In this document: positions 5,315-19,212 of the stretch, piece by piece
Layout: each line of letters begins with the position of its first letter
How positions within the stretch are numbered: the stretch's first letter is position 1
DNA from: Alphaproteobacteria bacterium
Lineage (GTDB): Bacteria; Pseudomonadota; Alphaproteobacteria; MPNO01
DNA: 64,000 nt
Assembly (NCBI GenBank): GCA_964291675.2
Contig: OZ219866.1
Location: 1,568,001-1,632,000 of the forward strand
Direction of reading: 5' to 3'
Translations under genes and position numbers: made by a program
Notes under the pieces: generated by a model
The model's database searches: none
Seen by the model: the letters and a program-made list of their open reading frames with translations, nothing else
Told to the model about the DNA's origin: nothing

Positions 5315-5459
5315 GAGACTTCGGGCGAAGGGCCGTGCTGGATGTTGCGAGGAGCGGCCCGGTCCGGCCGCTCACCGAAACCTGCCCCGTCCGCGGTTGG
5401 TCGACATGATCAAGATCGCGCAAGAGCAGTTACGGTGGCGGCCCAAGGGAGGAACGTCC

Positions 5460-5975
5460 ATGCCCCGTCCGATCCTGCCGACCATTGCCTTGGGCCTAGC
5501 GCTCGCGGTGCCGGCCAGCGCGGCCGAGAAGGTCACCCGGCTCGACCGGTTCTACCTGTGGAACTACTGTCGGCCGCTCAATTTGACGGTTGAAGTGCTG
5601 AGTGATGACGCCAGAAAGGTCGGCCTTCGCGAGTCGGACATCGAAACGGCGGTGCGAAGTCGCCTGCGGGGTGCTCGCATTTATGATGAAAAGCGCATTC
5701 CCACTCTCTATGTGAATGTCAACGTGGTCGGCCTAGCCTTTGCAATTCGAGTGGAATTCCAGAGACCTGTTAGGGTGTTGAATGCTCCCTATTGGATCGA
5801 AGCGGTAGAAATGGATCCGGCCCTCGTTAATCTTGCGTCCACCTGGGACACCGGCAGCGTGGGCACCCATGGCCGCCACGACGCTTACATTCTGTCGTCA
5901 GTGTCCCGGCATGTGGACAAGTTCATCGACGAGTACCTGCGGGTGAACGCCGACGCCTGCGGAAAGTCAAAGTGA
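5460..5975 (+). CDS. Exported protein, paralog of 16357..16920
   Basis: GGAGG RBS; signal peptide; ETAVRSRLRGARIYD and FIDEYLRVN-DAC shared with the paralog. Confidence 0.8.
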   Translation: MPRPILPTIALGLALAVPASAAEKVTRLDRFYLWNYCRPLNLTVEVLSDDARKVGLRESDIETAVRSRLRGARIYDEKRIPTLYVNVNVVGLAFAIRVEFQRPVRVLNAPYWIEAVEMDPALVNLASTWDTGSVGTHGRHDAYILSSVSRHVDKFIDEYLRVNADACGKSK

Positions 5976-6306: not shown

Positions 6307-6870
6307 TCAATTCAGCAGCGACGGATGCGCCCATGCCTTCCAGGACACGGGTAGAGACTGGGGGCCGAGCTTGCCGGCGTCGTTACGGACGGTGGTTCTG
6401 TAGATCGCCTCGTCCTTTCCGCTGCTCATCGGATAGAGAGCGGATATCCTGACGCGTGCGAGCGGCACGGGCTGCTTGAACAGGGCGATGAATGTCTCGG
6501 CCATGTACCGCTCGATTTTTTGCTGAAGCTTTCGCTTCGAGGCTGTCAGAATTCCGCCCGCTCGGAATTCGATGTCGACCAGCTTCGCGGACCGGGCGAA
6601 GGCGTCCCCTTCGGTCATTCGCCCGGCCTTGATGTCCGGGAGGTATTTCACGAAGAGATTCTCGCCGGTCGGATCCGTCATGGAATCGCGGACGGTCGCT
6701 GCGTCCAGGACTTGGCGCATGACCGAGGACCCGCAGATGACGGCGGCGATCCTGGCACTGTCGATCCCGGTCGCCTTCGACACGTCTACGCGGTCGATGC
6801 AGGCCGCCTGGGCGAGCGCGGGGATGCACAGCAGCGCGGCTGTGGCGAGATATACGTGAATTGTTCGCAT
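6307..6870 (-). CDS. Exported hypothetical protein
   Basis: Signal peptide MRTIHVYLATAALLCIPALAQA. Confidence 0.7.
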   Translation of the reverse strand: MRTIHVYLATAALLCIPALAQAACIDRVDVSKATGIDSARIAAVICGSSVMRQVLDAATVRDSMTDPTGENLFVKYLPDIKAGRMTEGDAFARSAKLVDIEFRAGGILTASKRKLQQKIERYMAETFIALFKQPVPLARVRISALYPMSSGKDEAIYRTTVRNDAGKLGPQSLPVSWKAWAHPSLLN

Positions 6871-7313
6871 TGTCGGGTGTCCGATCCTTTGCTAGATGGA
6901 GACCGCCGAGTCATCGGCATAGTGTACTGATGGCAGCCTCCATCGGTGCGCCAGAGGCGGGGCAACCCGGCACGGTTGCCCTGGCTCGCTTCCAGTCCGA
7001 AGCGTAAGCTCGTCAGGGACCGCCGCGTCACCAAGGTGGCCAGCGTCCCATATTCCGGACTCGGCGGGTGCCGGGCCGGCGTCAACACTTCTCGGAGAGA
7101 AAGTCCCGACTGTTCGCCAGGCCGGGGAGCTACCCCGTGCCGGGTCAAGGGCTGTTCTATTCAGATGCCGTAATGGGGCTTGGCGCTCTGCGGCATCGTC
7201 GGAGCTTGTGGCGATATCGGTGATTCGGGTGTCGTTGCCCTTACACGCTAGGCGTGTTCACGGGGTCTTGCCGCAAGGCGCGCCCCAATCCCTAGGAAGG
7301 AAAGGGCAACGAC

Positions 7314-8354
7314 ATGGAAGTCTATATCGGGCTGGATGTATCGCTGGCAAGCACGGCGATCTGCGTTCTCGGCGAGAAGGGGAAGCTGGTGACGGAGGCG
7401 CGGGTTGCCAGCGCTCCGGAGTCTCTGGTGTCGTTCATGCGCGAGCTGCCATACAGAATCGCGGCGATCGGCCTCGAGGCCGGTCCTCTGTCGCAATGGC
7501 TGTACAAGGGGCTGACCGAGGCCGGCTTCGAGGCCGTGCTGATGGAGACCCGGCAGGTGAAGGCGGCGCTGAAGGCGATGCCGATCAAGACCGACCGCCG
7601 GGACGCGGAGGGCATCGCGCGGCTGTTGCAGATGGGCTGGTTCCGGCCGGTGCACTGCAAGACGGTGTCGTCGCAGGAGATGCGGGCGCTGCTGAGCTCG
7701 CGCAAGTCGGTCTTGGACGTGCTCATCAAGATCGAGCTTTCGCTGCGCGGCGTGCTACGCAACTTCGGGCTCAAGCTGGGTGCAGTCTCGAAGGGCCGCT
7801 ACGAAGCCCGGGTGCGGGAGCTGATCGCCGGCAACTCGATGCTGGAGGCTGCCGCCGAACCGATCCTACGTGCGCGGGCGGCCCTGCGCCGCGAGCTGGC
7901 CGGGCTGGAGAAGCAGGTCCGCAAGCTGGCAAGTCAGGATCCGGTGTCCCGCCTCTTGATGACCATGCCTGGCGTCGGCCCGGTCGTGGCGCTGACGTTC
8001 GTGTCCGCGGTCGACGATCCCGAGCGGTTCCGGAGATCGAAGGATGTCGGCCCCTGGGTGGGGCTGACGCCGGGCCGGAACCAGTCCGGCGAACGCGATG
8101 TCGTCGGCGCGATCACCAAGGCCGGCGACGCCGGCCTGCGCACGGCGCTCTACCAGGCGGCGACGGTGATGCTGCACCGCGGGGGCCCGAACTGGCTGAA
8201 GGCCTGGGCGCTGCGCCTCGCGGTGCTGCGCGGCAGGAAGCGCGCAACCGTCGCGCTGGCCCGGCGGATCGGGGTGGTGCTTCACCGGATGTGGCGGGAC
8301 GGCACCGAGTTCCGCTTCACGCGCGAAGCGGCGATGGCGCTTCGCACGGCATAG
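7314..8354 (+). CDS. IS110 family recombinase (DEDD RuvC-like + Tnp domain)
   Basis: YIGLDVS, GLEAG, KTDRRDA, MPGVGP, GLTP..NQSG. Confidence 0.95.
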   Translation: MEVYIGLDVSLASTAICVLGEKGKLVTEARVASAPESLVSFMRELPYRIAAIGLEAGPLSQWLYKGLTEAGFEAVLMETRQVKAALKAMPIKTDRRDAEGIARLLQMGWFRPVHCKTVSSQEMRALLSSRKSVLDVLIKIELSLRGVLRNFGLKLGAVSKGRYEARVRELIAGNSMLEAAAEPILRARAALRRELAGLEKQVRKLASQDPVSRLLMTMPGVGPVVALTFVSAVDDPERFRRSKDVGPWVGLTPGRNQSGERDVVGAITKAGDAGLRTALYQAATVMLHRGGPNWLKAWALRLAVLRGRKRATVALARRIGVVLHRMWRDGTEFRFTREAAMALRTA

Positions 8355-8439
8355 GCGCGGCCGTGCCGTAGTGGCCGTCAACAGGAAGAGGAAGAGAGGA
8401 CCCCGCCTGAAGGTGGCGATCCAACGGTGTCCCCTCGCC

Positions 8440-8660
8440 GGGACGCGGTTCCCGATGATGCACGTGTTGCCCGCTGTCCGCCGAACCCAATCATTGTGTT
8501 CGAGCACGCTATTCAGATCGGCACTCGGGAATCGCCCTGGACCAGGCATGATGTTGGCGGCCGACGCGCCGACCACGGACGGAAGCAAGAGCCTGGCGAC
8601 GGACACTTCCGGGATCGCGAGCCCTTCTCAAGACGGGAAGCTTTTCCAATCGACCGTCCC
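8440..8660 (+). ncRNA. Candidate bridge/seek RNA of the IS1111-type element
   Basis: CTATTCAGAT (8509-8518) equals the left junction; TCGCCC (8532-8537) is complementary to right-flank GGGCGA; ACGGAAGC (8579-8586) equals the right junction; boundaries approximate. Confidence 0.6.
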
Positions 8661-8889
8661 TGATCCAGAGCCGCACGACCTCCGGGAGGTCGTGAACCAC
8701 GCCTGGGGCGATACAATCCGACCCAGGCGCCGCAGCTCGTGAACGAAAAACCGAACCGAGACGGTCTGCTGTTGAAAATCGTGCTTGACGGGAAACGCCC
8801 CATTACGGAAGCGGGCGACCCGACAGAGCGGGAGCCCTAGAAGCGTTGACCGGGGAGAAGCCTAGCGCAGTGCCGGCAAAAGTGCGCAT

Positions 8890-9160
8890 TTATTGTTGTC
8901 GCCCTCGCCGCCCCCGGTTCGGGATCTCCCGGGTCTCAACGCTGCCGCATTTCCCGCAGTATCGGCCCTCGGACCAATGGATCGCCTCGAACCAGCGATC
9001 CGGCGACTCCTCGTCGGGGAACATGTCCGTGAGTTCTACGATCGAGATACCCTTGCGGTGCGCTTTTCCGGGTGCTTTCTTCGCCATGTCGGGTGTGCTT
9101 TTTGCCCCCTATTATCGTATCGGAGAACACCCGCGCTTTCAAGTTAGATATATAATTTAT
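8890..9160 (-). pseudogene. Truncated IS1595 transposase (zinc-ribbon N-terminus) with a degenerate left TIR
   Basis: MAKKAPGKAHRKGISIVELTDMFPDE..CGKCGS similar to 12511; AATTATATATCT..TTGAA at ~9140-9158. Confidence 0.75.
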
Positions 9161-9420
9161 TTCTTTTTGGGCTCGGGCTTCTTATTAGGCTCGACCTGCT
9201 TGTCTGCGGCCTCCTTGCTATTCTTGGCGTCAGCGGTCGCAGGATTGCCATCGGTTGTGGGAATGGTGGAAGTGGCGGGACTCCACGTCTTGGCGATGAC
9301 AGCTTTGCGTAAAGAGTCGTCGTGCCAATCGACGCTCCCTACACCCATTGCAAAAGCGATAATTGGAAGGATGACCATCACTAAGGCTTTTCCAATGGTG
9401 GCAACCCAATCGGGCATCAC
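9157..9420 (-). CDS. Small membrane-anchored hypothetical protein
   Basis: N-terminal TM; overlaps the stop of 9417..9920. Confidence 0.55.
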   Translation of the reverse strand: MMPDWVATIGKALVMVILPIIAFAMGVGSVDWHDDSLRKAVIAKTWSPATSTIPTTDGNPATADAKNSKEAADKQVEPNKKPEPKKK

Positions 9421-9920
9421 TTGATCTCCTTCCGCATTGCTTCAATGATTTTGACCGCCGATTCGTCACCCTTTCGTCCGGCGTACCAGTAGGTGACGAT
9501 CGCTGCCGCGACAGGCAGAATAGTCAGGAAGATGTCCTTGCCAGTGGCAATATCTCCGATTGCTAGCAAGTATCCGACCACGGCGGCGCCTACGAGGAAC
9601 AGGAACCCGGCGGCGATGTAGGTCACGGCGATCCGAACCGCGCTGCGCCGGTTCTCCCGCTTCGCATTCTCAACAGCTTCGGCGTCACTCTCGTTGCTGC
9701 TATCCGCATTGGTCGCGGCGGTCGCGGTTGCCGTTGCGGCAACCGGCATTGTTTCTGACTCCGATGATTCGGCAAGCTTGGCGGGCGAAGAATCTTCCGT
9801 AGGCTTGGGCTCTTTTGCCGAGGAGGTGTCCTCACTAGGTTTCCCGTCGTTGGGGTCAGCCTTGGATTCCTGTGACGTCTCAGTTGAGACGCTCTTGTTT
9901 TCGTCCTTGTCCTCAGCCAT
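9417..9920 (-). CDS. Membrane protein with acidic low-complexity N-terminus and two C-terminal TMs
   Basis: AGGAGG RBS; hydrophobic C-terminal helices. Confidence 0.7.
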   Translation of the reverse strand: MAEDKDENKSVSTETSQESKADPNDGKPSEDTSSAKEPKPTEDSSPAKLAESSESETMPVAATATATAATNADSSNESDAEAVENAKRENRRSAVRIAVTYIAAGFLFLVGAAVVGYLLAIGDIATGKDIFLTILPVAAAIVTYWYAGRKGDESAVKIIEAMRKEIK

Positions 9921-10186
9921 TCAGCACCTCCTAGCCTACACGGGCACGATTCCAAGGGCAGTCGCCGACAGTCGCCCTTTCCAATTCAAGCTGTTCGACA
10001 TTTACGAATCTGTCAAGTGTTTTACACACTCTTGACGTATTGAAGGTCGTTCCACATGATTTCTTTATGAAACAGTGCTGAGGGAATCGGCGCCCTAGGC
10101 AGTCCACCCGGCAATGGGCGGACCTACCGGGAGGTGTCAGAAGCCGGCCACACTAAACCGGGAAGGCGGCCCTCGCCGGAGGCTTA

Positions 10187-12103
10187 GAGTGCCAGGCTAA
10201 CTGGTGGAAGGGTAGCGGGTGAAAGTCCCGCGAAACGAAAGGAGTAGCCAACCACGTTTCTCCGCGAGCCGTGCATCGTCGGCCGTGAGGCCGGGGGTGA
10301 AGCGTCGGTAGCGGTGCATGCGGGCAGGGATATTGAGCGCCGAAAACGAGATGGTCCGAAGTGCCGAGACGTTTAAGCTCGTCGAAGGCAACATCGTCCA
10401 CACCGCAATATGGCGAGGTGTGGGGGAGCTTCGCGGCGTCGGGGACCCCATGCACGCATGTAAGCCCACCACCGGGACCTGGGAGGTCTTCACACTGCCC
10501 CGATGGTCGTATCGGGGCCGCGAAGGGAAGGAGGTATCCGAAGCCTGAGATGAACGGAGTGAAGAAGTCGGACGGGGCCATAGTACCGTCGAAGCGGGCG
10601 AACAACGGGGCGCGAGCCTCTGCGGAGTCCGTGGAGGAAAGGGCCTCGACCAAGGGGAATCCGCGAAGCGAAAGCACGCGCCGGACGCAGAGCCGGGAAA
10701 GCGTGACCCAGGCCGCCGAGCGGATACGTCAAGCTGCAACGAGGAAACCGCAGGAGAAACTGACGGCGCTCCTGCATCATGTCACGCCGGACGCGCTGCG
10801 CTGGGCCTTCCACGCGCTGAAGCGGGACGCCGCGGCGGGGGTGGACGGCATGACATGGGCCGAGTACGCGAACGGGCTGGAAGAGCGGCTGCTCGACCTG
10901 CACCGGCGCGTACAGTCCGGGGCGTATCGGGCGCCGCCGGTCCGGCGGGTAGAGATACCCAAGCCGGATGGCGGGACACGACCGCTCGGCGTCGCCGCGC
11001 TGGAGGACAAGATCGTCCAGAAGGCGGTGACGGAGATCATCCTGACGCCGATCTACGAGCCGGTCTTCCTCGGCTTCAGCTACGGGTTCCGACCGGGGCG
11101 CGGGGCGCATGACGCACTCGACGCGCTTGCTGTCGCCATCAATCGGCGGAAGGTCAACTGGGTGGTCGACTGCGACATCCAAAGGTTTTTCGATTCTGTT
11201 TCGCGGGACTGGCTCGTCCGGTTCCTTGAGCACCGGATCGGGGATCGGCGGGTGATCCGGCTGATCGCCAAGTGGCTGAAAGCCGGCGTCATGGTCGATG
11301 GCCGGTGGGAGGACACGCAGCAGGGCACGCCGCAAGGGGCGATCGTCTCAGCCACGCTGGCGAACGTGTATCTGCACTATGTCCTCGACCTCTGGTTCCA
11401 TCGCAAGTGGCGGCCCGAAAGGGCAGATGGCGATGCCATCATCGTACGCTACGCCGATGATGTGGTCGTCGGCTTCCAGCGCAAGAGGGACGCGGAACGC
11501 TTCCTGCATGCGCTTGGGGAACGGCTCGGCCAGTTCGATCTGGCCCTGCATCCGGCCAAGACCCGGCTCATCGAGTTCGGCAGGTTCGCGGAAGTGGACC
11601 GCCGGGCACGGGGGCTGGGCCGCCCGGAGACGTTCGACTTCCTGGGCTTCACGCACTATTGCAGGACGACCAGGAGCGGGCAGTTCGGGCTCGGACGCAA
11701 GCCCGTTGCAAAGCGGATGAGCCGCACCCTGAAGCGCATCGCGGAGGTTCTGCGGCGGCGCAGGCACCACGACCTCCACGAGGTCGCCCGGTGGCTGGGG
11801 CGGGTAGTCAACGGATGGCTGAACTACTACGCCGTCCCGACGAGTGCCCGCTTCCTGCGAAGCTTCACCTACATCCTGAAACGGATATGGCTGAAGGCGC
11901 TGCGCCGACGGTCGCAACGGGATCGCTTCAGCTGGCAACGGCTGCAAGCCCTGGTTGACCGATACTGGCCCAAGCCATGGATCCGACACCCGTGGCCGGG
12001 GCAGCGGTTCGACGTCAAATACCCGAGGTAGGAGCCGGATGGCTTAACGGCCACGTCCGGATCTGTGCGGGGGGCGCCGGGAAACCGGCGTCCCTACCGC
12101 GAC
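10187..12103 (+). mobile_element. Group II intron (bacterial class E-like), antisense to a DUF1353 pseudogene
   Basis: 5' GAGTGCCAGGCTAAC; domain V GAGCCGGATG..CACGTCCGGATCTG; domain VI ending CCCTACCGCGAC. Confidence 0.85.
10550..12031 (+). CDS. ltrA: Group II intron reverse transcriptase/maturase, no En domain
   Basis: IPKPDGGTRPLG, FSYGFRPGR, GTPQG, RYADD, FDFLGF; start uncertain (10550 or ~10703). Confidence 0.95.
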   Translation: MNGVKKSDGAIVPSKRANNGARASAESVEERASTKGNPRSESTRRTQSRESVTQAAERIRQAATRKPQEKLTALLHHVTPDALRWAFHALKRDAAAGVDGMTWAEYANGLEERLLDLHRRVQSGAYRAPPVRRVEIPKPDGGTRPLGVAALEDKIVQKAVTEIILTPIYEPVFLGFSYGFRPGRGAHDALDALAVAINRRKVNWVVDCDIQRFFDSVSRDWLVRFLEHRIGDRRVIRLIAKWLKAGVMVDGRWEDTQQGTPQGAIVSATLANVYLHYVLDLWFHRKWRPERADGDAIIVRYADDVVVGFQRKRDAERFLHALGERLGQFDLALHPAKTRLIEFGRFAEVDRRARGLGRPETFDFLGFTHYCRTTRSGQFGLGRKPVAKRMSRTLKRIAEVLRRRRHHDLHEVARWLGRVVNGWLNYYAVPTSARFLRSFTYILKRIWLKALRRRSQRDRFSWQRLQALVDRYWPKPWIRHPWPGQRFDVKYPR

Positions 12104-12510
12104 CGCGCGGAACACGTCGTCGGCGAATTCTCTGTTGCGCTCCAACCCGCCCTGGACGCGTCAGGTGGCGTAGTGCCAGTCATGCACCACACTGGCTTCG
12201 AGATGTGGACCGACACAGCCGACATACCAGCTCGCGACGCGCGGCACCGAAGCCAGATCGGTGCGGAAGCCGGCGGGAAGGCGTAGCGGAAGCGGGTATC
12301 GTTGCCCGCCGGCGCGGCTTTCGAGCGCGGCGATGGCTTCGTACGGCGCGGCGACGACGTAGAGCGCATCCCGGCCAGTGCGCCAATTCACCGCAGCGAT
12401 GCCGCGGCTCAAATGCAGCATGTTTTCGCATGGGAATTATATACCTGAGTGCCTTGAAACGGGAAGGCCGAATCACCATATAGTGCCTAAGGAATTGAGG
12501 GAGTTACCCG

Positions 12511-13467
12511 TTGGCACAGAAGGCACCCGGCAAGCATCACCGCGAAGGCATGACGCTGATGCAGGCGTGCGAGATGTTCCCGGACGACGCGATGGCCGAG
12601 GCATGGTTCGCGGCCAGGCGCTGGCCTGACGGAGCGCATTGCCCGTACTGCGGATCGGTCAACATCCTGTCCGGTGCGGTGCACAAGACGATGCCCTACC
12701 GCTGCCGCGAGAAGGAATGCCGCAAGCGATTCTCCGTCCGCACCGGAACCGCGATGGAAGAGTCGAAGCTGGGCTATCGCGTATGGGCGATGGCCCTTTA
12801 CCTGTTCTCGTCCAACCTCAAGGGTGTGAGCAGCATGAATCTCCACCGCGATCTTGGCATTACGCAGAAATCGGCGTGGTTCCTCGCCCACCGCATCCGC
12901 GAGGCATGGGGCGATTTCGGCGGCATGTTTGACGGCCCGGTTGAGGCCGATGAGTGCTACATCGGCGGCAAGCGGTAGAACATGAGCAACGCCAAGCGGA
13001 AGGAACTGGCGGGCACGGGCCGCGGCGCTGTCGGCAAAACCGCCGTGGTCGGCGTGAAGGATCGCGCGACCAATCGGGTTTCCGCCCGGACGGTCGAGCA
13101 TACCACCTCTCCCTATCTGGCGGGCTTCGTCGCCGAGAAGACGAAGATGGGCGCGACCGCCTACACCGACGATGCCACCGTCTACAACGCGCTCGGCCCG
13201 TGGTTCCGGCATGAGACCGTCAACCACAGCGCCCATGAGTACGTCCGAGGGCAGGCGCATACCAATGGCATCGAGTCGTTCTGGTCCATGCTCAAGCGCG
13301 GGATCGTCGGCACGTTCCACCATCTGAGCCCGCAGCATCTAGACCGCTACGTCGGCGAATTCTCCGGTCGCCACAACGTGCGGGATCGGAACACCATTGA
13401 TCAGATGTCATCGCTGGCGCGCGGTATGGTCGGCAAGCGGCTGATGTATCGCGATCTGATCGCGTAG
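12511..13467 (+). pseudogene. IS1595 transposase with an in-frame TAG at 12976
   Basis: CPYCGS zinc ribbon, VEADECYIGG, YTDD, HETVNHS, HTNGIESFWSMLKR. Confidence 0.9.
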
Positions 13468-13806
13468 CAATGCCTCCAGCGAAGATCATAGCGCTGGTTG
13501 TCTGTGCTGGATTGATTGTGGCGTTCGGCATCCGAGGGATCGCCGAGGGAGAATTTTGGACGGCCCTGCTGGCTGGCGGGTTCGCGGCTTGGTTGCTCTA
13601 CAATCTGTTCATGCCTAAGTAAAAAGACGCCCCGCTGGTTTGACGGCCAGCGCGGGACGGGTGAAGCGAAGACAGAAGCCCTCTCGGCGGAAGAACAATG
13701 CCGAAGGGGCTTCGTTATGTCCACCGAGAATCAAGTCAAAGTGGAAGTCGTCAACCAGACGAGCCGTGCTCTAGACTGTGTGGCGGTCCGTCGGCGTGGC
13801 GGCATT

Positions 13807-14052
13807 TCAGCGATGATCGTCGAGGCGGACGATGTTCACACCGTCGACGTGCACCGACTCCCCATCGTTCAGTATGATGCGAGCGTCGAGCGTCCCGCCC
13901 GTCAATCGGAACTTGCGGCCGAACACGGGCGCGAACTCGACTGATCCCCCGTCCGCGTATTCGATCCGCACGGAGAGCGGGGCGAGCGATTGATTGTCGA
14001 CCTCGACAACATCGCCCGCGCTGAGTGTCCATCCCAGATTCTTGTCGCTCAC
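13807..14052 (-). CDS. Hypothetical protein (IS cargo)
   Basis: AAGGAGG RBS before the GTG start. Confidence 0.6.
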   Translation of the reverse strand: MSDKNLGWTLSAGDVVEVDNQSLAPLSVRIEYADGGSVEFAPVFGRKFRLTGGTLDARIILNDGESVHVDGVNIVRLDDHR

Positions 14053-14080
14053 GGCAAGTCCTCCTTGTCGTGGGTGTTGA

Positions 14081-14110
14081 GAGCCCCGCCAGTGGCCGCT
14101 GGCGGGGCTC
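14081..14110. terminator. GC-rich hairpin after the lipoprotein gene
   Basis: GAGCCCCGCCAG-TGGCCG-CTGGCGGGGCTC; no clear U-tract. Confidence 0.5.
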
Positions 14111-14116
14111 CGTATT

Positions 14117-15670
14117 CTACTGGCGCGCCGCCCCGAACGCCGCCGTCAGGTCGGAGCGTTCAAGCGTGCCTGCCGCGCCCTCATGGGAGCGCCCAGTGAA
14201 GATGCCGGTGAGCGTACCGGCATCCCCTCCGGTCTGCCGGAACGTGTTGCCGCGCACCGCGATGGTGTAGCCGAGATCCCCGTCCAGCCATCGCGTGCCG
14301 GTGCCTGCGGCACCCGGCGCGGACCGCGCGACCCAGCTCTCCAGACTGGTGAAGTCGGCGGTGCCGGTCATCGTCGCGAGGTTGACCCCGATCGCCGCGT
14401 CCCCGGCGACCGCCTCGTCCGATGGGGTGAGCCCAAGCAATGCCCCGGTCCACGTTGCCGAGCCCGACAGTTGCCGGTTGTTGGCGAGCGTCGTGCTGGG
14501 CCGGATGCCGTAGGCCCATGGCTCGGCATAGCCGTTGCGCAGCGCGATGCCGAAGTTGGCGTGCGGGCCGTTGCCGTCGATGCGCCACGTCCGCGCATCC
14601 CACGGCCCGAAATCCTCGGGGCCATCACCTATGTCGAGACGGCTGTAGAGCGCGCGCAACGCCTCGCGATCCACTGGGAAGAGAACCGAGAGCGGCTTCG
14701 GCACGCCGTTCTGCTCGGCTTGGTGCATCGCTCCAGTGTGTTCCATGATTGTCGCGAATTGCGCCGAGACATGAGCGTCGACCCCGAGCGCGTGCAGGAG
14801 CTCATGGGCGAGCAAAGTGATGGCCTCGTGATCGCGCGGATACGAATTCGCGCCCATGTTGAACTGGATGTAGGCGTAGTGCCCCAGCGGCTAGCCCCAT
14901 GTCACGGCTGCTGATCCAGGCGGTCGCCGATAGTCGCTAGCCGGCACGAATTCCACGTCGATGGCATTGTCCCGCGCGTCGTTCGGCCCCTGGAAGCTGC
15001 CGCGGTCGCTAACCCTGTCCCGCAGGCTGGCACCCGGTGCTGGCGCGAGCACCTGAATCTTCGACCCTTCCGGCAGCGCGGCGTTCACCAACTGCACCGC
15101 ACGGATGGTTCGGTCGAGGTCGTTCGCACTTGCGGGGCCGACGACGCGCAATTGGGGTGGCCCATCGTACCGCTGCACCGTGCCCGCGATCGCTTCCGCG
15201 AGATAGGCGGAAACCACGTTGCTCCCCACGCCGTCCGGTATGCGGCCATGCCGAACCTCGACATCGCCCCGTTCTCCGACCACGGGAAGCGCGTCGGCGA
15301 GGTCGTGTTCGATCCGGGCGATGCTGTTTCCAACTGTGAAGGTGTCGAAGTAGCTCGCACCCTGGTCGACGCCGACCATCAGCCGGTTCGCGTCCTGGTA
15401 CACCGGCATCTGGCGGGCGTCGCCGGCCGCGAGGGGCGGCAATCCGTCGATGCTGTAAACGCCGTTCGGCTCGTAGGGGAACGCCAGACGCTCGACCGGG
15501 CGCGGCTCCGGTGGCGGCGGGTCAGGATCGGCCGGCCCGGTGGGCGGTGGATCTTCGGGCGGTGGCCGCATCGTGGTCACGGCGTCGCCTCCACCGCCTC
15601 CGCCACAACCAACGAGCATCAGGAAAGGGAACAGAACCACTACGCCAAGCACGCTTGCGAGCTTGCGCAT
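14117..15670 (-). pseudogene. Lipoprotein with HExxH zincin motif and transferrin-binding-protein-like C-terminal beta-barrel; single TAG at 14891
   Basis: Lipobox LVGC-GGGG, Pro-rich linker, AHELLHALG, C-terminal LTGIFTGRSHEGAAGTLERSDLTAAFGA; the two ORFs are in frame. Confidence 0.75.
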
Positions 15671-15715
15671 GGTGAGTCTCGGGTGCCCCGGCCCCGGAAT
15701 TGGTGCCGGGCCGTT

Positions 15716-15841
15716 TGCACTATCGCGCAGAGATTGCGGAAGCCCCGCGTATTCGCCCCGGCCGGGTAGCTACTCCCTGCCGTCGAACGGGCTCTTGTAT
15801 TGAGCGGGCGACCCGACATCGGGTCTCCGCGCGATAGTGCA
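15716..15841. ncRNA. Structured motif copy B
   Basis: TGCACTATCGCGC/GCGCGATAGTGCA outer stem, TCGCCC/GGGCGA stem, two inner hairpins. Confidence 0.65.
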
Positions 15842-15883
15842 GGGGGAAGCGTAGGCGCTGGATTGTTGGAAATCCAGAACTTT

Positions 15884-15916
15884 GGTCACTATAATATGGA
15901 GAGACGGACGGAGGGC
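15884..15916 (+). promoter_or_regulatory. Conserved -10 box and leader GGTCACTATAATATG...ACGGAGGGC
   Basis: Same GGTCACTATAATATG on the minus strand at ~18009-18023. Confidence 0.6.
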
Positions 15917-16138
15917 ATGGCTGCAATGGCGAGCAAGATCGTCACCTGCAAACTTCAACTCGACGAGGATGCGACACGGATAGCGGAAGCCGCGGCGGCA
16001 ATGCTGAAATCACAAGGGCGACCGTCCGACATCGACGCGATCGTTTCCAACGCTGTTCGCATCGCCTACGGCACCCGCGTCTCCGAGCTCGTCAAGGATG
16101 CCGGAGGAATGACGGTCAGCGATCTTGTCGGCCCCTGA
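15917..16138 (+). CDS. Small hypothetical protein, possibly ribbon-helix-helix-like
   Basis: GGAGGG RBS; beta-alpha-alpha-like pattern. Confidence 0.55.
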   Translation: MAAMASKIVTCKLQLDEDATRIAEAAAAMLKSQGRPSDIDAIVSNAVRIAYGTRVSELVKDAGGMTVSDLVGP

Positions 16139-16162
16139 ACGCGGAGAAAGACGGAGGGCGCG

Positions 16163-16336
16163 ATGTCAGAGACCAAGGGCGCGAAGCGGCGGAAGCCGCC
16201 GAGCAAGCATCAGCCGACGAAGGCCGAGATGGAAGAGGTCATCGTGATCGACGCGAGCCTCGACCAGCTCGCGAGCGCGGTGCTGGTGAGTGGGGCGAAG
16301 CGTCGGGAGCCCGAGAAGTCCGCCACCTCAAAGTGA
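16163..16336 (+). CDS. 57-aa basic protein associated with IS1595 elements
   Basis: Manual ORF MSETKGAKRRKPPSKHQPTKAEMEEVIVIDASLDQLASAVLVSGAKRREPEKSATSK; degraded paralog at 17794-17987. Confidence 0.7.
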   Translation: MSETKGAKRRKPPSKHQPTKAEMEEVIVIDASLDQLASAVLVSGAKRREPEKSATSK

Positions 16337-16356
16337 TCCTCGATCGCGGGATCTTG

Positions 16357-16920
16357 ATGCCCCGTCTGATCCCGCCAGTCGTTGCCCTGGCCCTCGTGCT
16401 CGCGGCACCAGCCAGCGCGGTGGAGAAGGCCACGGAGCGTGACCGTTCCCGCTTATGGAACGACTGTAGGCCAGTGGATGTGATAGTCGTTGGTTTGTCG
16501 GATGACGCTGGAAAGATCGGACTCCGCAGGAAGACCCTTGAGACGGCGGTGCGGAGTCGTCTGCGGGGTGCCCGCATTTATGACGGCATTCCGCCTGCTA
16601 GAGAGCCACGCTGGATCGGATGGAAGGTCGACCACGTCCGCTATGGCGAGCCATTCCTCTATCTGGATGTCAATGTTGTCGGCGTCGCTTTCGGCGTTGA
16701 AGTAGGATTTCGTAGATCCGTGATGATGCTGTTGCCGGTGCCGGATGGCATGGACCCGCTTGTTGGTCCGGCGACCACATGGGCGAGCGGCAGTACAGGC
16801 ACACACGGCGGCAATTCGTCCTATGTCCTGTCAGCCGTCACCGAACTTGTGGACGAATTTATCGACGAGTACCTCCGGGTGAACTGGGACGCCTGCGAGA
16901 AACTGCCCCCGGCCCAATAA
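16357..16920 (+). CDS. Exported protein, paralog of 5460..5975
   Basis: Signal peptide; ETAVRSRLRGARIYD. Confidence 0.8.
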   Translation: MPRLIPPVVALALVLAAPASAVEKATERDRSRLWNDCRPVDVIVVGLSDDAGKIGLRRKTLETAVRSRLRGARIYDGIPPAREPRWIGWKVDHVRYGEPFLYLDVNVVGVAFGVEVGFRRSVMMLLPVPDGMDPLVGPATTWASGSTGTHGGNSSYVLSAVTELVDEFIDEYLRVNWDACEKLPPAQ

Positions 16921-16938
16921 CTTCGAAGGAGAGGACGA

Positions 16939-17184
16939 ATGGCGGAACTGTGGCTGGTCACATGCCTTGAGAGCATGGAAGAAAAGTGGACCGAAGAAGT
17001 CCGTCTCTCGAACCAAGACATGCGAACGCTTTTGCAGATGCTCCTTTGCCGAACCCTTGAGCCCCATGAAATAATCGCTGCTGTGACAGGACGGCGCGAC
17101 CATCTGCTTGAAATCCGTCAAGAGGGCAACGGCATGTACACGGCAGCCAGCACCGTGTTGCACTACACGGCTCGGAAGGTATAG
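16939..17184 (+). CDS. Hypothetical protein (IS cargo)
   Basis: GGAGAGG RBS; ends just before the right TIR. Confidence 0.6.
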   Translation: MAELWLVTCLESMEEKWTEEVRLSNQDMRTLLQMLLCRTLEPHEIIAAVTGRRDHLLEIRQEGNGMYTAASTVLHYTARKV

Positions 17185-17307
17185 CCTCAAGGGCACTCAG
17201 GTATATAAGCCCCTTTCGTATCGAAGGTCGACCACGCGGATCGGCTCCGCCGGATACGCGCATGTCATCGTCGGTCCCGTCCCGGGCGCGCCCGGTCCGG
17301 CGGCGGG

Positions 17308-17562
17308 CTAGGGGCGCGCCTCGCCCACCGTGAACGCGTCATCCGCCATCTCGGGGTCCATCGAGGCCGCGTGCTCTTTCCTGTAGGCCGGCCACTTGTG
17401 ATTCCAAATGTCGGTGCCCGAGACGCCGAAATCCTCGTCCGTGATGTGGCCGCTCTTGCGCAGCTCGCAGTACAGACTGGGGCCCATCTTGACGCCGACA
17501 CGGGTCGGCGCCTGTCTCGCGATATCCGGGTCGATCTGCTGGAGTTGTTGTTGGACGTTCAT
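17308..17562 (-). CDS. Hypothetical protein
   Basis: 84-aa ORF with plausible composition. Confidence 0.55.
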   Translation of the reverse strand: MNVQQQLQQIDPDIARQAPTRVGVKMGPSLYCELRKSGHITDEDFGVSGTDIWNHKWPAYRKEHAASMDPEMADDAFTVGEARP

Positions 17563-17793
17563 GGCTTCGGATGGGGATTATATGCCTGAGTGCCCCGCGC
17601 GTCATTTGTACGCCATCCAGATGACGGCACCGACGACGACGGCAATGACGATCAGGACGGTCGTGAGGACGGCTTTCCAGAAGAACGCGATCAGAAACCC
17701 GGCGATCTTGCGGATGCTCGGGTCGCGGATGTAGGGCCGTAGGAGTTCCTCGACGACAATCGCTAGCGTTGACTGGCGGGAGCGTCTCCCCAT

Positions 17794-17987
17794 TCAGCGC
17801 GGGCCAGACGGGGACTGGGGCGCTTCCTCACCTTTGATGGGCTCCCGGCGTTTCGCTCCGACCGCCTGCACCGAGCCCGCGAGCTGGTCGAGCGTCGCGT
17901 CGATCACGAGGTACTCTTCCATCTCGACCTTCGTCGCCTGATGCTAGTTCGGCGGCTTCCGTCGCGTCGCGCCCTTGTCTCTGACAT
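17794..17987 (-). pseudogene. Paralog of the 57-aa ORF (frameshift + TAG)
   Basis: HQATKVEMEEYLVIDATLDQLAGSV. Confidence 0.7.
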
Positions 17988-18066
17988 CGCGCCCTCCGTT
18001 TGTCGCTTCATATTATAGTGACCGCACCGCTGGCCTTGCAGCAGTCCAGCGGCTACGTCTTCCCCA

Positions 18067-18194
18067 GCAAACGCGCAAGTTGCGATCCCGCTCTGCCGGG
18101 TCGCCATCTGGATACAACAGCCCTTGACCCGGCGGGGATCGCTCCCGCGCGCGGCGAATATGCGGGGAACGCACACGCCACTTAAGACGTTTGC
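18067..18194. ncRNA. Structured motif copy C (inverted relative to A and B)
   Basis: Reverse complement GCAAACG..TATTCGCC..GGGTCAAGGGCTGTTGTATCCAGATGGCGACCCGGCAGAGCGGGA..CGTTTGC. Confidence 0.65.
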
Positions 18195-18297
18195 AACGGC
18201 CCGGCTCTATCGCCGGGGCCGGGTGACACAGCGGGAGAGGGGCATGCGCAGAGTGTGCGGGGTGCTTACTGCGTTCGTGGTCAGTGGTAGTTTGATC

Positions 18298-19212
18298 TCA
18301 TTCGCTGCCGTCATGCCGAGGCACCAGACCACGCCAGGCAGCAAACTCGCGGCCCGACCTGAAGGCGTCGGGATCGCCCATCGCAGCAACGGCGGCCGTC
18401 GCGGTCAGCACGCCCACGCCCGGAATCTCTGCGATCCGCCGGCTGGCAGCATTGCCGCGGTGCCACAGAGAGATCCGCCGCTCGATCTCGCCGATCTCCT
18501 CGTCGGGGTTGCCGACCCGCGCCCACTGTTCGCGTAGCGTGTCGATCACCATTGCCGGCAGACGCTCCGAGATCCTCTCGAGCGCCTCGGCCATGTCTCG
18601 GCGCATCCCCGCCCGGCCCTGCGGCATCACCTCGCCGTATTCGGTCAGAAGACCGCGCAGCCCGTTGATCTGCGCGGTGCGGAACTTCACAAGCTGCTGG
18701 CGCATCCGGTGCAGCGCCAGGATCGCCTGCTGCTCCTCGCTCTTCACGGCAACAGTCTTGATGCCCGACATCTGCGCCGCCGTCCAGATCGCCTGCGCGT
18801 CGTGCGCGTCTTTCTTGTTGCCGGCCACAAAGGGCCGAACCGCTTTCGCCGGCAACAGCCAGGGGTCGTGACCGAGCTCCCGAAGCCGGCGCGCCCAGTG
18901 TTGCGAGCCGCTGCACGCCTCCATCGCGACCACGCACGGCACACGGTTGGCGAAGTGCTCCAGAAACTTGGACCGCGTCAGCTTCAGGTCCACAACCTCG
19001 CCGGTCTCCATATCGACCCAGTGCAACTGGAACACACGCTTCGCCGTATTCACCCCGACGACGGTTCTGTTAGTCTTCATCTCGGACTCTCCGGTTTGCC
19101 TGCGAAGAGCTTGCTCTTCCCACTTGGCACTCTGATGCCCTCGGCCCGAGAGGGTCCACCTCAATTCTCCCGCCTTCCAACATCAGGGGTGGGAGGCGTC
19201 CACCCCATTTCC
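18298..19212 (-). pseudogene. Truncated IS110 (IS1111-type) element; transposase 18298..19080
   Basis: VVGVNTAKRVFQLH, MEACSG, IPGVG, truncated after GLVPR; left end AATGGGGTGGACGCC. Confidence 0.85.

What the first reader, a model, noticed from the sequence alone, without database searches (positions are those of the whole stretch)
7050..18250. Three copies of an unrecognised ~125-nt covarying structured motif carried by IS1595 cargo elements
Seen: copies A (7081-7164+8812-8850), B (15716-15841) and C (18067-18194, inverted) share one fold. The outer stems differ in sequence yet still pair: GTCAACACTTCT/AGAAGCGTTGAC, TGCACTATCGCGC/GCGCGATAGTGCA, GCAAACG/CGTTTGC. All have an invariant TCGCC/GGCGA helix, a GGG..AGC(T/G)A..CCC hairpin, and a T-arm-like hairpin with a 7-nt loop (TTCTATT, TTGTATT, TTGTATC) next to the 3' strand. 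Each is preceded by a CGGC..GCCGGGCCG hairpin and followed by GGGG-A(G)AG-CxTAG plus a hairpin. All three lie upstream of a divergent gene starting with an MR signal peptide (6870, 15670, 18244). Inference: a conserved RNA (tRNA-like small RNA or cis-regulatory leader controlling exported cargo) or an ssDNA recombination site that defines this element family. I cannot match it to an RNA family I know.
Basis: partly seen in the sequence, partly recalled or inferred. Interest (0 to 1): 0.9.

Follow-up and report, generated by a model that had tools for sequence, protein, structure and literature searches.

The report
Structured cargo-gene leader in IS1595 transposons

Summary
The motif is real. 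On 101 aligned copies the fold pairs in 91.6% of cells against 72.5% in shuffles, with 766 against 244 double changes.

G·U pairs far outnumber A·C pairs. A TTGAC/CTAnnnT promoter-like pair lies upstream in 60 of 100 copies. A ribosome-binding site and ORF start a median of 39 nt downstream in 93 of 101. So the 'divergent' signal-peptide gene is the gene this leader precedes.

The fold is an 18-bp variable clamp (P1) around a conserved core (H, P2, P3, P4). The 3' strand of H also forms a hairpin (P0) of equal predicted stability, which suggests a two-state switch.

The IS1595 link holds. Five of 6 own copies lie within about 5 kb of one of about 6 IS1595 transposase loci, and whole units carry 8-bp target duplications.

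Rfam gives only sub-threshold sRNA-Xcc1 matches. Function is inferred; no RNA data were available.

The parts
15683..15854 (-). Leader copy B. In RNA sense: -10-like CTACGCT; P1 5' arm 15841-15829; H 5' strand 15817-15809; core; P1 3' arm 15728-15716; H 3' strand 15714-15706; P0 hairpin down to 15689.
   Evidence: R1 162.5 bits; R2 128 bits; sequence.
14117..15670 (-). Cargo gene of copy B: a lipoprotein-like ORF (signal peptide then CGGGGGG) with an HExxH motif, broken by one in-frame TAG at 14891-14893.
   Evidence: tblastn with a 508-aa homologue spans the stop in one frame. TAG seen; the homologue has E at that position. No Pfam family.
18052..18227 (+). Leader copy C.
   Evidence: R1 146.9 bits; R2 110 bits.
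18244..18305 (+). Start of the cargo ORF of copy C (signal-peptide-like N-terminus). The reading frame is lost where an IS110-family element begins.
   Evidence: The transposase ORF 18298-19164 (-) has IS110 Pfam domains.
8812..8864 (-). Leader copy A, 5' part (-10-like CTAGGCT, P1 5' arm, H 5' strand, start of P2).
   Evidence: script alignment with the IS taken out by coordinates.
7048..7164 (-). Leader copy A, 3' part (rest of core, P1 3' arm, H 3' strand, P0).
   Evidence: Partial R1 match of 39.4 bits at window 7105-7167.
7165..8811 (+). IS110-family insertion sequence that splits copy A inside the 5' strand of P2 (transposase 7314-8354).
   Evidence: Pfam DEDD_Tnp_IS110 and Transposase_20. 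Single copy in the genome.
6307..6870 (-). ORF downstream of copy A (signal-peptide-like), about 210 nt from the leader.
   Evidence: No Pfam family.
8890..9087 (-). Truncated N-terminus of an IS1595-family transposase directly upstream (RNA sense) of copy A. A TIR-like stretch with TTGAAA lies at about 9138-9165.
   Evidence: Similarity to 12511-12978 was judged by eye.
12432..17213 (.). IS1595-family cargo transposon 1. IRL 12432-12453; transposase 12511-13467 (+, in-frame TAG at 12976-12978); cargo B and leader B (-); four small ORFs 15917-17184 (+); IRR 17191-17213. Flanked by TTTCGCAT and TTTCGTAT.
   Evidence: TIR pattern found 3 times against 0.01 expected. Pfam DDE_Tnp_IS1595 105.5 bits. 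Flanks; TAG.
17573..17594 (+). IRL of a second IS1595-type element that extends rightwards and holds leader C.
   Evidence: (repeat D1).

Best explanation
Each copy is the promoter-proximal 5' leader RNA (about 175 nt) of the passenger-gene slot of an IS1595-family cargo transposon. Transcription starts just after a sigma-70-like promoter, whose -35 lies in the transposon's terminal repeat when the leader is next to an end. The first transcribed bases form the 5' arm of a long, sequence-variable clamp helix (P1, median 18 bp). Inside the clamp lies a conserved core: closing helix H (GUCGGGUCG with CGGCCCGGC) stacked on P2, an internal loop with GAAUA on both strands, P3 and hairpin P4. The 3' strand of H can instead pair with the next segment to form hairpin P0, which ends 10-25 nt before the ribosome-binding site. 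The 5' strand of H can instead pair with an upstream CCCG (Px). I read this as a cis-acting two-state leader (Px+P0 versus H) that sets how much of the cargo gene, usually an exported or surface protein, is expressed. It would give the transposon a portable expression module that works in many phyla. Shown here: the copies, the fold and its covariation, the strand, the position relative to promoter-like elements and ORFs, the two partners of the H 3' strand, the bias of the cargo, and the IS1595 context. Inferred: that it is transcribed, that the two states alternate, and that they control expression. The signal is unknown.
For: Family and fold: 6 copies in the genome. 19 of 101 related genomes have a match, up to 12 copies in one genome. 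101 copies were aligned to model R2. Of their cells 91.6% pair, against 72.5 +/- 0.5% in shuffles; 766 cells show double changes against 244 +/- 14; 0 of 500 shuffles reach the observed values; slid registers pair in at most 49.8%. H was not part of model R2, yet it pairs in 96.5% of cells, with compensatory changes at its two inner pairs. Strand: G.U against A.C is 119/37, 82/8, 97/31 and 178/18 in P1, P2, P3-P4 and H. Promoter: a TTGAC-like hexamer stands at the expected distance from CTAnnnT in 60 of 100 copies. ORF: 93 of 101 copies have an ORF starting a median of 39 nt after H, and 68 of those have a GGAGG-like ribosome-binding site. Switch: P0 pairs in 84.9% of cells. Where the shared base G becomes A, the P0 partner becomes U in 15 sequences, while the H partner is a U that accepts both. 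The median H duplex is -15.3 kcal/mol against -15.6 for the P0 hairpin. P0 beats its shuffled control in 86 of 101 copies and Px in 67 of 101. Cargo: 62 of 93 ORFs have a signal-peptide-like N-terminus and 24 of 93 a lipobox, against 256 and 21 of 1711 control ORFs. Pfam finds CsgG-like, ankyrin-repeat, GT25 and GT2 proteins among others. IS1595: 5 of 6 own copies lie within about 5 kb of one of about 6 transposase loci. 67 of 241 pattern hits have the DDE domain within 5 kb, 64 of them in one of two fixed layouts, and 16 of 40 hits with at least 3 kb on both sides have it within 3 kb. TIRs plus 8-bp duplications enclose leader, cargo and transposase in L091, L110, L039, L098 and window element 1.
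Against: There are no expression data: no RNA run was listed for this organism. The consensus promoter scan called nothing on the leader strand for copies B and C, and copy A has no -35. All three window copies sit in decayed contexts: an IS inside A, an in-frame TAG in cargo B, an IS in cargo C. P0 is never followed by a U-tract (by eye) and does not cover the ribosome-binding site, so the way a switch would act on expression is not evident. H and P2 are strongly conserved in sequence, so most of their support is one-sided change. Alignment A4 was fitted to a model that contains P1, P2, P3, P4 and P0, which inflates those counts, and the sequences are related. P1 and H cross as a pseudoknot, and whether they coexist is untested. 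About a third of the cargo ORFs (31 of 93) are not exported by my crude test.
Confidence: 0.55

Rival explanations
1. It is mainly a gene for a stable small RNA, an enlarged relative of sRNA-Xcc1. That RNA would be released by termination or processing near P0 and act in trans, with the downstream gene only read through.
For: sRNA-Xcc1 (RF02221) was the only Rfam family to match the motif itself. It matched on the same strand and in the same register in 5 of the copies scanned, at 26.2-31.4 bits. From passages I read: sRNA-Xcc1 is an 88-nt RNA detected by Northern blot with mapped ends (PMC2996969). It is multi-copy in Xylella (PMC12189769). It sits upstream of symE on integron cassettes (bioRxiv 10.1101/2025.06.18.660453).
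Against: All matches are far below the gathering score of 53, and most copies give no match at E <= 10. There is no U-tail after H or P0. The tight, conserved spacing to a ribosome-binding site and start codon is what a leader would show, not a free-standing gene.
Confidence: 0.2
2. It is a passive leader: a 5' stabiliser, insulator or RNase III processing site. The long P1 helix at the very 5' end would protect or process the cargo mRNA without sensing anything.
For: P1 has a median of 18 bp and -28.9 kcal/mol, and begins about where the transcript should start. P1 arms show no cargo-specific complementarity, as expected for a generic structural role.
Against: A passive hairpin does not explain the roughly 100 nt of conserved core. 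It also does not explain the conserved unpaired GAAUA stretches or the two covariation-supported partners of the H 3' strand.
Confidence: 0.15
3. It acts as DNA: a single-strand or cruciform recombination site or a transposase-binding site that defines the element or lets cargo be exchanged.
For: It is embedded in IS1595 transposons. The conserved 175 nt could serve as a homology arm for swapping cargo.
Against: G.U-only pairs favour one strand. The motif's distance to the element ends varies, with two layouts and a TIR within 90 nt in only 5 of 100 copies. The IS1595 transposase is a DDE enzyme; to my knowledge such enzymes do not use a single-strand intermediate. The motif always points into an ORF.
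Confidence: 0.05

Closest known systems
sRNA-Xcc1 (Rfam RF02221)
   Same: A G+C-rich closing helix followed by ACC, an inner CCCGC/GCGGG-type helix, and an internal loop with AAUACAA opposite GAAUA. It is multi-copy, sits on mobile DNA and lies upstream of a gene on the same strand (passages of bioRxiv 10.1101/2025.06.18.660453 and PMC12189769).
   Different: It scores 26-31 bits against a gathering score of 53. The present RNA is twice as long, with an added 18-bp clamp P1, an inserted P4 arm (28-32 nt where the model has 1-4) and a P0 hairpin in place of a U-tail. It is carried by IS1595 transposons, not integron cassettes. Homology is therefore possible but not shown.
IS1595-family transposons with passenger genes (ISfinder's cargo-carrying IS; Siguier et al. 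2009, recalled and not read here)
   Same: DDE_Tnp_IS1595 transposase, short TIRs, 8-bp target duplications, and passenger genes inside the element.
   Different: I found no description of a conserved structured leader in front of the passenger gene. Searches covered listings only, and the 2009 paper is not in the library.
Riboswitch and attenuator leaders (alternative 1:2, 2:3, 3:4 pairings)
   Same: A promoter-proximal leader with variable covarying outer helices, conserved junction bases, and one strand with two exclusive partners of similar stability.
   Different: No ligand, no terminator U-tract and no sequestering of the ribosome-binding site were found. The genes controlled are unrelated accessory genes rather than one pathway.
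Integron gene cassettes
   Same: Many unrelated, mostly unknown-function accessory genes placed behind one common element on a mobile platform.
   Different: There is no integrase and no attC. The common element lies upstream of the gene, is transcribed with it, and the carrier is a DDE transposon.
Correia elements of Neisseria (recalled)
   Same: Small multi-copy units with paired ends and promoter activity upstream of genes.
   Different: Correia ends are conserved terminal repeats of a mobile unit. Here the paired arms differ in every copy and covary, and the mobile unit is the surrounding IS1595 element.

Membership tests
sRNA-Xcc1 (RF02221) | Infernal score at or above Rfam's gathering score (53 bits) | tested here: not met
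   Best scores were 26.6 bits (copy B), 31.4, 26.8, 26.6 and 26.2 bits (4 of 20 loci) and 26.8 bits (copy D). There was no hit at gathering threshold in the window.
sRNA-Xcc1 (RF02221) | Consensus architecture: closing helix, inner helix, AAUACAA/GAAUA internal loop | tested here: met
   The cmscan alignments place H, P2 and both loop strands on the model's helices. H and P2 are supported independently by covariation counts.
sRNA-Xcc1 (RF02221) | About 88-nt RNA ending in a U-rich tail right after the closing helix | tested here: not met
   Median length is 174 nt. None of the 101 3' flanks shows a U-tract after H or P0 (by eye).
IS1595 family (the carrier element) | DDE_Tnp_IS1595 transposase domain | tested here: met
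   PF12762 scores 105.5 bits on window 12982-13467. Homologues occur in 19 of 97 motif loci.
IS1595 family (the carrier element) | N-terminal Zn-ribbon domain | tested here: inconclusive
   PF12760 scores 22.8 bits, below its cut-off of 25.4.
IS1595 family (the carrier element) | Terminal inverted repeats and an 8-bp target duplication (the 8-bp length is recalled) | tested here: met
   TIRs were found in 8 loci. Duplications are 8 of 8 in L091, L110, L039 and L098, unclear in L043, and 7 of 8 around window 12432-17213.
tRNA or tRNA-like RNA | Cloverleaf or T-arm recognisable by a tRNA finder | tested here: not met
   ARAGORN found 0 genes in the window. The '7-nt loop hairpin' overlaps the better supported P2.
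Riboswitch | Binding of a defined ligand with a change in gene expression | not testable with these tools
   Only the architecture (alternative pairings) could be examined.
Intrinsic-terminator attenuator | G+C-rich hairpin followed by a U-tract | tested here: not met
   P0 is a G+C-rich hairpin but has no U-tract in any of 101 flanks. The terminator scan found none at copies B or C.

The most novel reading that the evidence does not exclude
A transposon-borne sensor. The leader would be a true ligand- or factor-responsive RNA switch, or a self-processing module that yields a small RNA plus a P0-capped mRNA. IS1595 cargo transposons would carry it from phylum to phylum, so that secreted, surface and host-interaction genes (ankyrin-repeat, CsgG-like and LPS glycosyltransferase cargo) arrive with their own regulated expression device. 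That would make it a new, widespread riboregulator class whose unit of spread is a DDE transposon.
Probability: 0.2. Interest if true: 0.9.

Novelty: new variant of a known kind. Interest (0 to 1): 0.72.

Why it matters
If the reading holds, this is a large, strongly covarying RNA structure that Rfam 15 does not hold above threshold. It is present in hundreds of copies across at least 10 phylum-level groups and is tied to one transposon family. It would show that cargo-carrying insertion sequences bring a dedicated promoter and folded leader that make the passenger gene expressible, and perhaps regulated, in very different hosts. It may also give context to sRNA-Xcc1, a mobile small RNA of unclear role. 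Finally, it offers a concrete, testable two-state RNA for which a signal could be sought.

Tried and rejected
Rfam at gathering threshold found nothing on the motif. Lenient scans gave only sub-threshold sRNA-Xcc1 on the motif itself. The 14 control genomes held no sRNA-Xcc1 above cut-off, so I could not obtain true members for a reciprocal test.

tRNA-like reading: rejected.

They are kept only as possible alternative-state pairings.

RNA-seq: no RNA holder was listed for this stretch. This says nothing about expression.

I tested whether the variable P1 arms, or the linker, are complementary to each copy's own start region. Cognate and non-cognate duplex energies were alike, with a median rank of 32-35 of 68. 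Rejected.

I tested whether the IS110 element in copy A targets the motif. It is single-copy in this genome, so there is no evidence either way.

I tested whether the in-frame TAGs in the transposase and in cargo B mean recoding. Homologues have K/R and E at those places. I read this as decay.

Phage or plasmid carriage: there were 0 exact-pattern hits in viral contigs and no blastn match in the plasmid collection.

The promoter scan with the tool's strict consensus called no leader-strand promoter for copies B and C. The promoter claim therefore rests on the family-wide pattern.

Literature: searches for sRNA-Xcc1, IS1595 with passenger gene, IS1595 or ISXO2 with RNA-motif terms and sponge symbiont with IS terms gave no description of this leader. 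I saw listings and abstract starts only, except for passages of PMC11701678, bioRxiv 10.1101/2025.06.18.660453, bioRxiv 10.1101/2020.03.17.996009, PMC12189769 and PMC2996969. Supplements are closed and might hold relevant motif lists. A search for MAG name strings did not settle habitat. Record titles do not state habitat, and I did not trace any record.

Full report
THE OBSERVATION. Reading the window confirms three related stretches at the stated places. Copy A is split at 7164/7165 and 8811/8812 by a 1,647-bp element whose ORF carries IS110-family Pfam domains. BLAST and a covariance model (R1, built from five intact own copies) find six copies in this 4.8-Mb genome. These are A, B, C and three more on the same contig, plus two marginal hits at E 0.07 and 0.125 that I do not count.

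The family is not confined to this genome. R1 matched 19 of 101 related genomes (10 of 11 in the genus), with up to 12 copies in one genome. It found nothing in viral contigs.

The 120 genome hits are 118 MAGs and 2 Sphingomonas isolates. Tallied by hand from the record titles, they are:
- 58 alphaproteobacterial
- 9 gammaproteobacterial
- 11 Gemmatimonadota
- 10 Acidobacteriota
- 8 Latescibacterota
- 8 Nitrospirales
- 6 Binatia
- 3 Chloroflexi
- 2 Rhodothermales
- 1 Spirochaetia
- 1 Opitutales
- 3 others

R1 matched in 78 of the 80 such loci I handed to it, out of 120 found. The titles do not give habitat. The mix of phyla reminds me of marine invertebrate-associated communities, but that is recollection and untested.

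WHICH STRAND.
- In the helices defined below, G.U pairs far outnumber A.C mismatches: 119/37 in P1, 82/8 in P2, 97/31 in P3-P4 and 178/18 in H. On the other strand these numbers would swap.
- On this strand a TTGAC-like hexamer lies about 17 nt before a conserved CTAnnnT, followed by a C-rich stretch and then the first helix. A simple regular expression finds the -35-like hexamer at the expected place in 60 of 100 copies.
- On this strand 93 of 101 copies are followed by an ORF that starts a median of 39 nt (interquartile range 34-50) after helix H. Of those, 68 have a GGAGG-like site.
- The only Rfam family that touches the motif (sRNA-Xcc1, sub-threshold) does so on this strand.

So the 'divergent' signal-peptide genes at 6870, 15670 and 18244 are the genes downstream of the RNA.

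THE FOLD. I rebuilt the model with an explicit structure (R2) and aligned 101 copies from 98 loci (A4). Counting pairs on A4 gives:
- cells paired: 91.6%, against 72.5 +/- 0.5% in shuffles
- cells with changes on both sides: 766, against 244 +/- 14
- covariation score: 0.503, against 0.165
- shuffles reaching the observed values: 0 of 500
- registers slid by 1-3 columns: at most 49.8% paired

Two caveats apply. A4 was fitted to a model that contains P1, P2, P3, P4 and P0, and the sequences are related. The shuffles are therefore not probabilities.

The helices, in RNA sense, are as follows.
- P1 is a clamp between the first transcribed bases and a segment just before the 3' end of the domain. 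Its median length is 18 bp and its median energy -28.9 kcal/mol. Only the outer TGCA../..TGCA is conserved, and most positions show all four Watson-Crick pair types.
- H is GUCGGGUCG pairing with CGGCCCGGC. It was not part of model R2, yet it pairs in 96.5% of cells. U.G changes to U-A or C-G at two positions, and the two inner pairs show compensatory changes.
- P2 is CCCGCU with GGCGGG (96.7% paired; C-G changes to U-A in 33 sequences at one pair).
- An internal loop follows, with GAAUAGAACA on one strand and GAAUA on the other.
- P3 pairs in 87.5% of cells.
- P4 is a two-part hairpin (87.0% and 82.6% paired) with a loop of UAGCU.

P1 and H cross, so together they form a pseudoknot. I argue from geometry only that both can coexist as a three-helix junction with the RNA's 5' end at the junction. 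This is untested.

They are less well supported comparatively.

TWO STATES. The 3' strand of H has a second partner: the segment that follows it, forming hairpin P0. P0 pairs in 84.9% of cells. Where the shared G is replaced by A (19 sequences), the P0 partner is U in 15, while the H partner is a U that pairs with either base.

The two alternatives have equal predicted stability, with a median of -15.3 kcal/mol for the H duplex and -15.6 for the P0 hairpin. P0 is more stable than a control with shuffled downstream bases in 86 of 101 copies. The 5' strand of H can likewise pair with a conserved upstream CCCG (Px). Px pairs in 79.5% by column and is more stable than its control in 67 of 101 copies.

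This is the topology of an attenuator or riboswitch (1:2 and 3:4 against 2:3). It would also explain why H and its neighbours are so conserved: each base must serve two partners. What it lacks is an evident output. P0 has no U-tract and ends 10-25 nt before the ribosome-binding site.

THE GENES BEHIND IT. By a crude hydrophobicity test, 62 of 93 downstream ORFs have a signal-peptide-like or membrane N-terminus, and 24 of 93 also have a lipobox, often followed by a glycine run. Among 1,711 gene-like control ORFs of this genome the figures are 256 (15.0%) and 21 (1.2%). The control's start codons are crudely chosen, so the fold difference is rough.

Of the 20 proteins scanned against Pfam, four were transposase ORFs and 16 were cargo proteins. 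Eleven cargo proteins matched a family:
- three CsgG-like proteins
- an ankyrin-repeat lipoprotein
- two family-25 glycosyltransferases and one family-2 glycosyltransferase
- YrbL
- T5orf172
- a dienelactone-hydrolase-like lipoprotein
- a weak leishmanolysin-like match

The other five cargo proteins, and all ten window ORFs tested, have no family. The cargo is thus varied, mostly surface or secreted, and mostly unknown.

THE CARRIER.
- The window ORF pair 12511-13467 carries DDE_Tnp_IS1595 (105.5 bits) and a sub-threshold Zn-ribbon.
- In this genome there are about six such loci. Copies A, B, C, D and E lie 1.9, 2.7, 5.1, 0.4 and 0.9 kb from one. Copy F lies 623 kb away.
- Homologues occur in 19 of 97 motif loci.
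- Among 241 pattern hits, 67 have the DDE domain within 5 kb of available flank. Of these, 45 lie downstream on the opposite strand and 19 upstream on the same strand, with 3 otherwise. Among the 40 hits with at least 3 kb on both sides, 16 have the domain within 3 kb.
- Terminal inverted repeats of the type GGGnnTTATATA...TTGAC enclose transposase, leader and cargo.
- Perfect 8-bp direct repeats flank the units in L091, L110, L039 and L098.
- In L091 the repeat ends 9 nt before the model start and supplies the -35.

In the window, element 1 runs from IRL 12432 to IRR 17213 and is flanked by TTTCGCAT and TTTCGTAT. It contains the transposase, cargo B, leader B and four small ORFs. A second IRL at 17573 opens the element that holds copy C. 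Copy A follows a truncated transposase N-terminus (8890-9087).

All three window copies are in decayed settings. An IS lies inside A. Both the transposase and cargo B carry an in-frame TAG, where homologues have K/R and E. An IS110-family element cuts cargo C.

WHAT IT MOST LIKELY IS. It is the 5' leader of the passenger-gene slot of IS1595 cargo transposons, acting as RNA in cis. I put about 0.85 on the claim that it is an RNA-level leader on this strand. I put about 0.45 on the claim that the H/P0 alternative is a working switch. This gives the 0.55 stated for the combined explanation. Three rivals remain:
- a released small RNA of the sRNA-Xcc1 kind (0.2)
- a passive stabiliser or RNase III site (0.15)
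- a DNA-level site (0.05)

COMPARISON WITH WHAT IS KNOWN. The nearest curated family is sRNA-Xcc1. It shares the closing helix plus ACC, the inner helix and both loop strands. But scores are half the gathering score, the size and appendages differ, and there is no U-tail. I therefore do not file this motif as a member.

From passages I read, sRNA-Xcc1 is an 88-nt RNA seen on Northern blots (PMC2996969). It is multi-copy in Xylella (PMC12189769). It lies upstream of symE on integron cassettes (bioRxiv 10.1101/2025.06.18.660453) and upstream of an ORF in APSE phages (bioRxiv 10.1101/2020.03.17.996009). That context resembles the one found here.

IS1595 elements with passenger genes are known (recalled from ISfinder and Siguier et al. 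2009, not read). I found no description of a conserved structured leader in them (listings only).

VERDICT. This is a real, strongly supported and widespread structured RNA element that Rfam does not hold above threshold. It was correctly spotted, correctly tied to IS1595 cargo elements and to exported proteins, and drawn on the wrong strand with a partly wrong core. Its function is inferred, not shown.

Noticed in passing
window 10222-12100: A group II intron: Rfam group-II-D1D4-6 at 170.3 bits (10222-10448) plus a reverse-transcriptase-like ORF at 10361-12031. It lies between the truncated IS1595 transposase (8890-9087) and the IRL at 12432.
   Followed up: no
window 7165-8811: An IS110-family element is inserted inside the conserved 5' strand of P2 in copy A. 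It is single-copy in this genome, so whether it targets the motif is open.
   Followed up: partly
window 12976-12978 and 14891-14893: Both the IS1595 transposase and cargo B of the same element carry one in-frame TAG. Homologues have K/R and E at those places, so this looks like decay rather than recoding.
   Followed up: yes
window 15838-16312 versus 17839-18069: An inverted duplication (79 nt at 76% and 139 nt at 85%). It covers the promoter side of leaders B and C and a small ORF (MSETKG...), so B and C are part of a larger mirrored segment.
   Followed up: no
window 5397-5975 and 16333-16920: Two paralogous signal-peptide ORFs of about 190 aa with no Pfam family. One lies near copy A and one inside element 1.
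   Followed up: no
window 12424-12431, 17214-17221 and 17565-17572: The 8-bp flanks of the IS1595 ends resemble each other (TTTCGCAT, TTTCGTAT, CTTCGGAT). Two of the ends abut the start codon of a minus-strand ORF. This hints at a preferred target or at a flank that travels with the element.
   Followed up: no
G000 contig C2 3221221-3223323 (loci L007, L010): Copies D and E face each other across two convergent small secreted-protein genes, each with an IS1595 transposase or fragment behind it. The arrangement is a mirror-image pair of cargo units.
   Followed up: partly
L053 (two H 3'/P0 segments in tandem), L037 (two leaders 1.4 kb apart): Some loci show local duplication of the 3' part of the leader or of whole leader-cargo units.
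   Followed up: no
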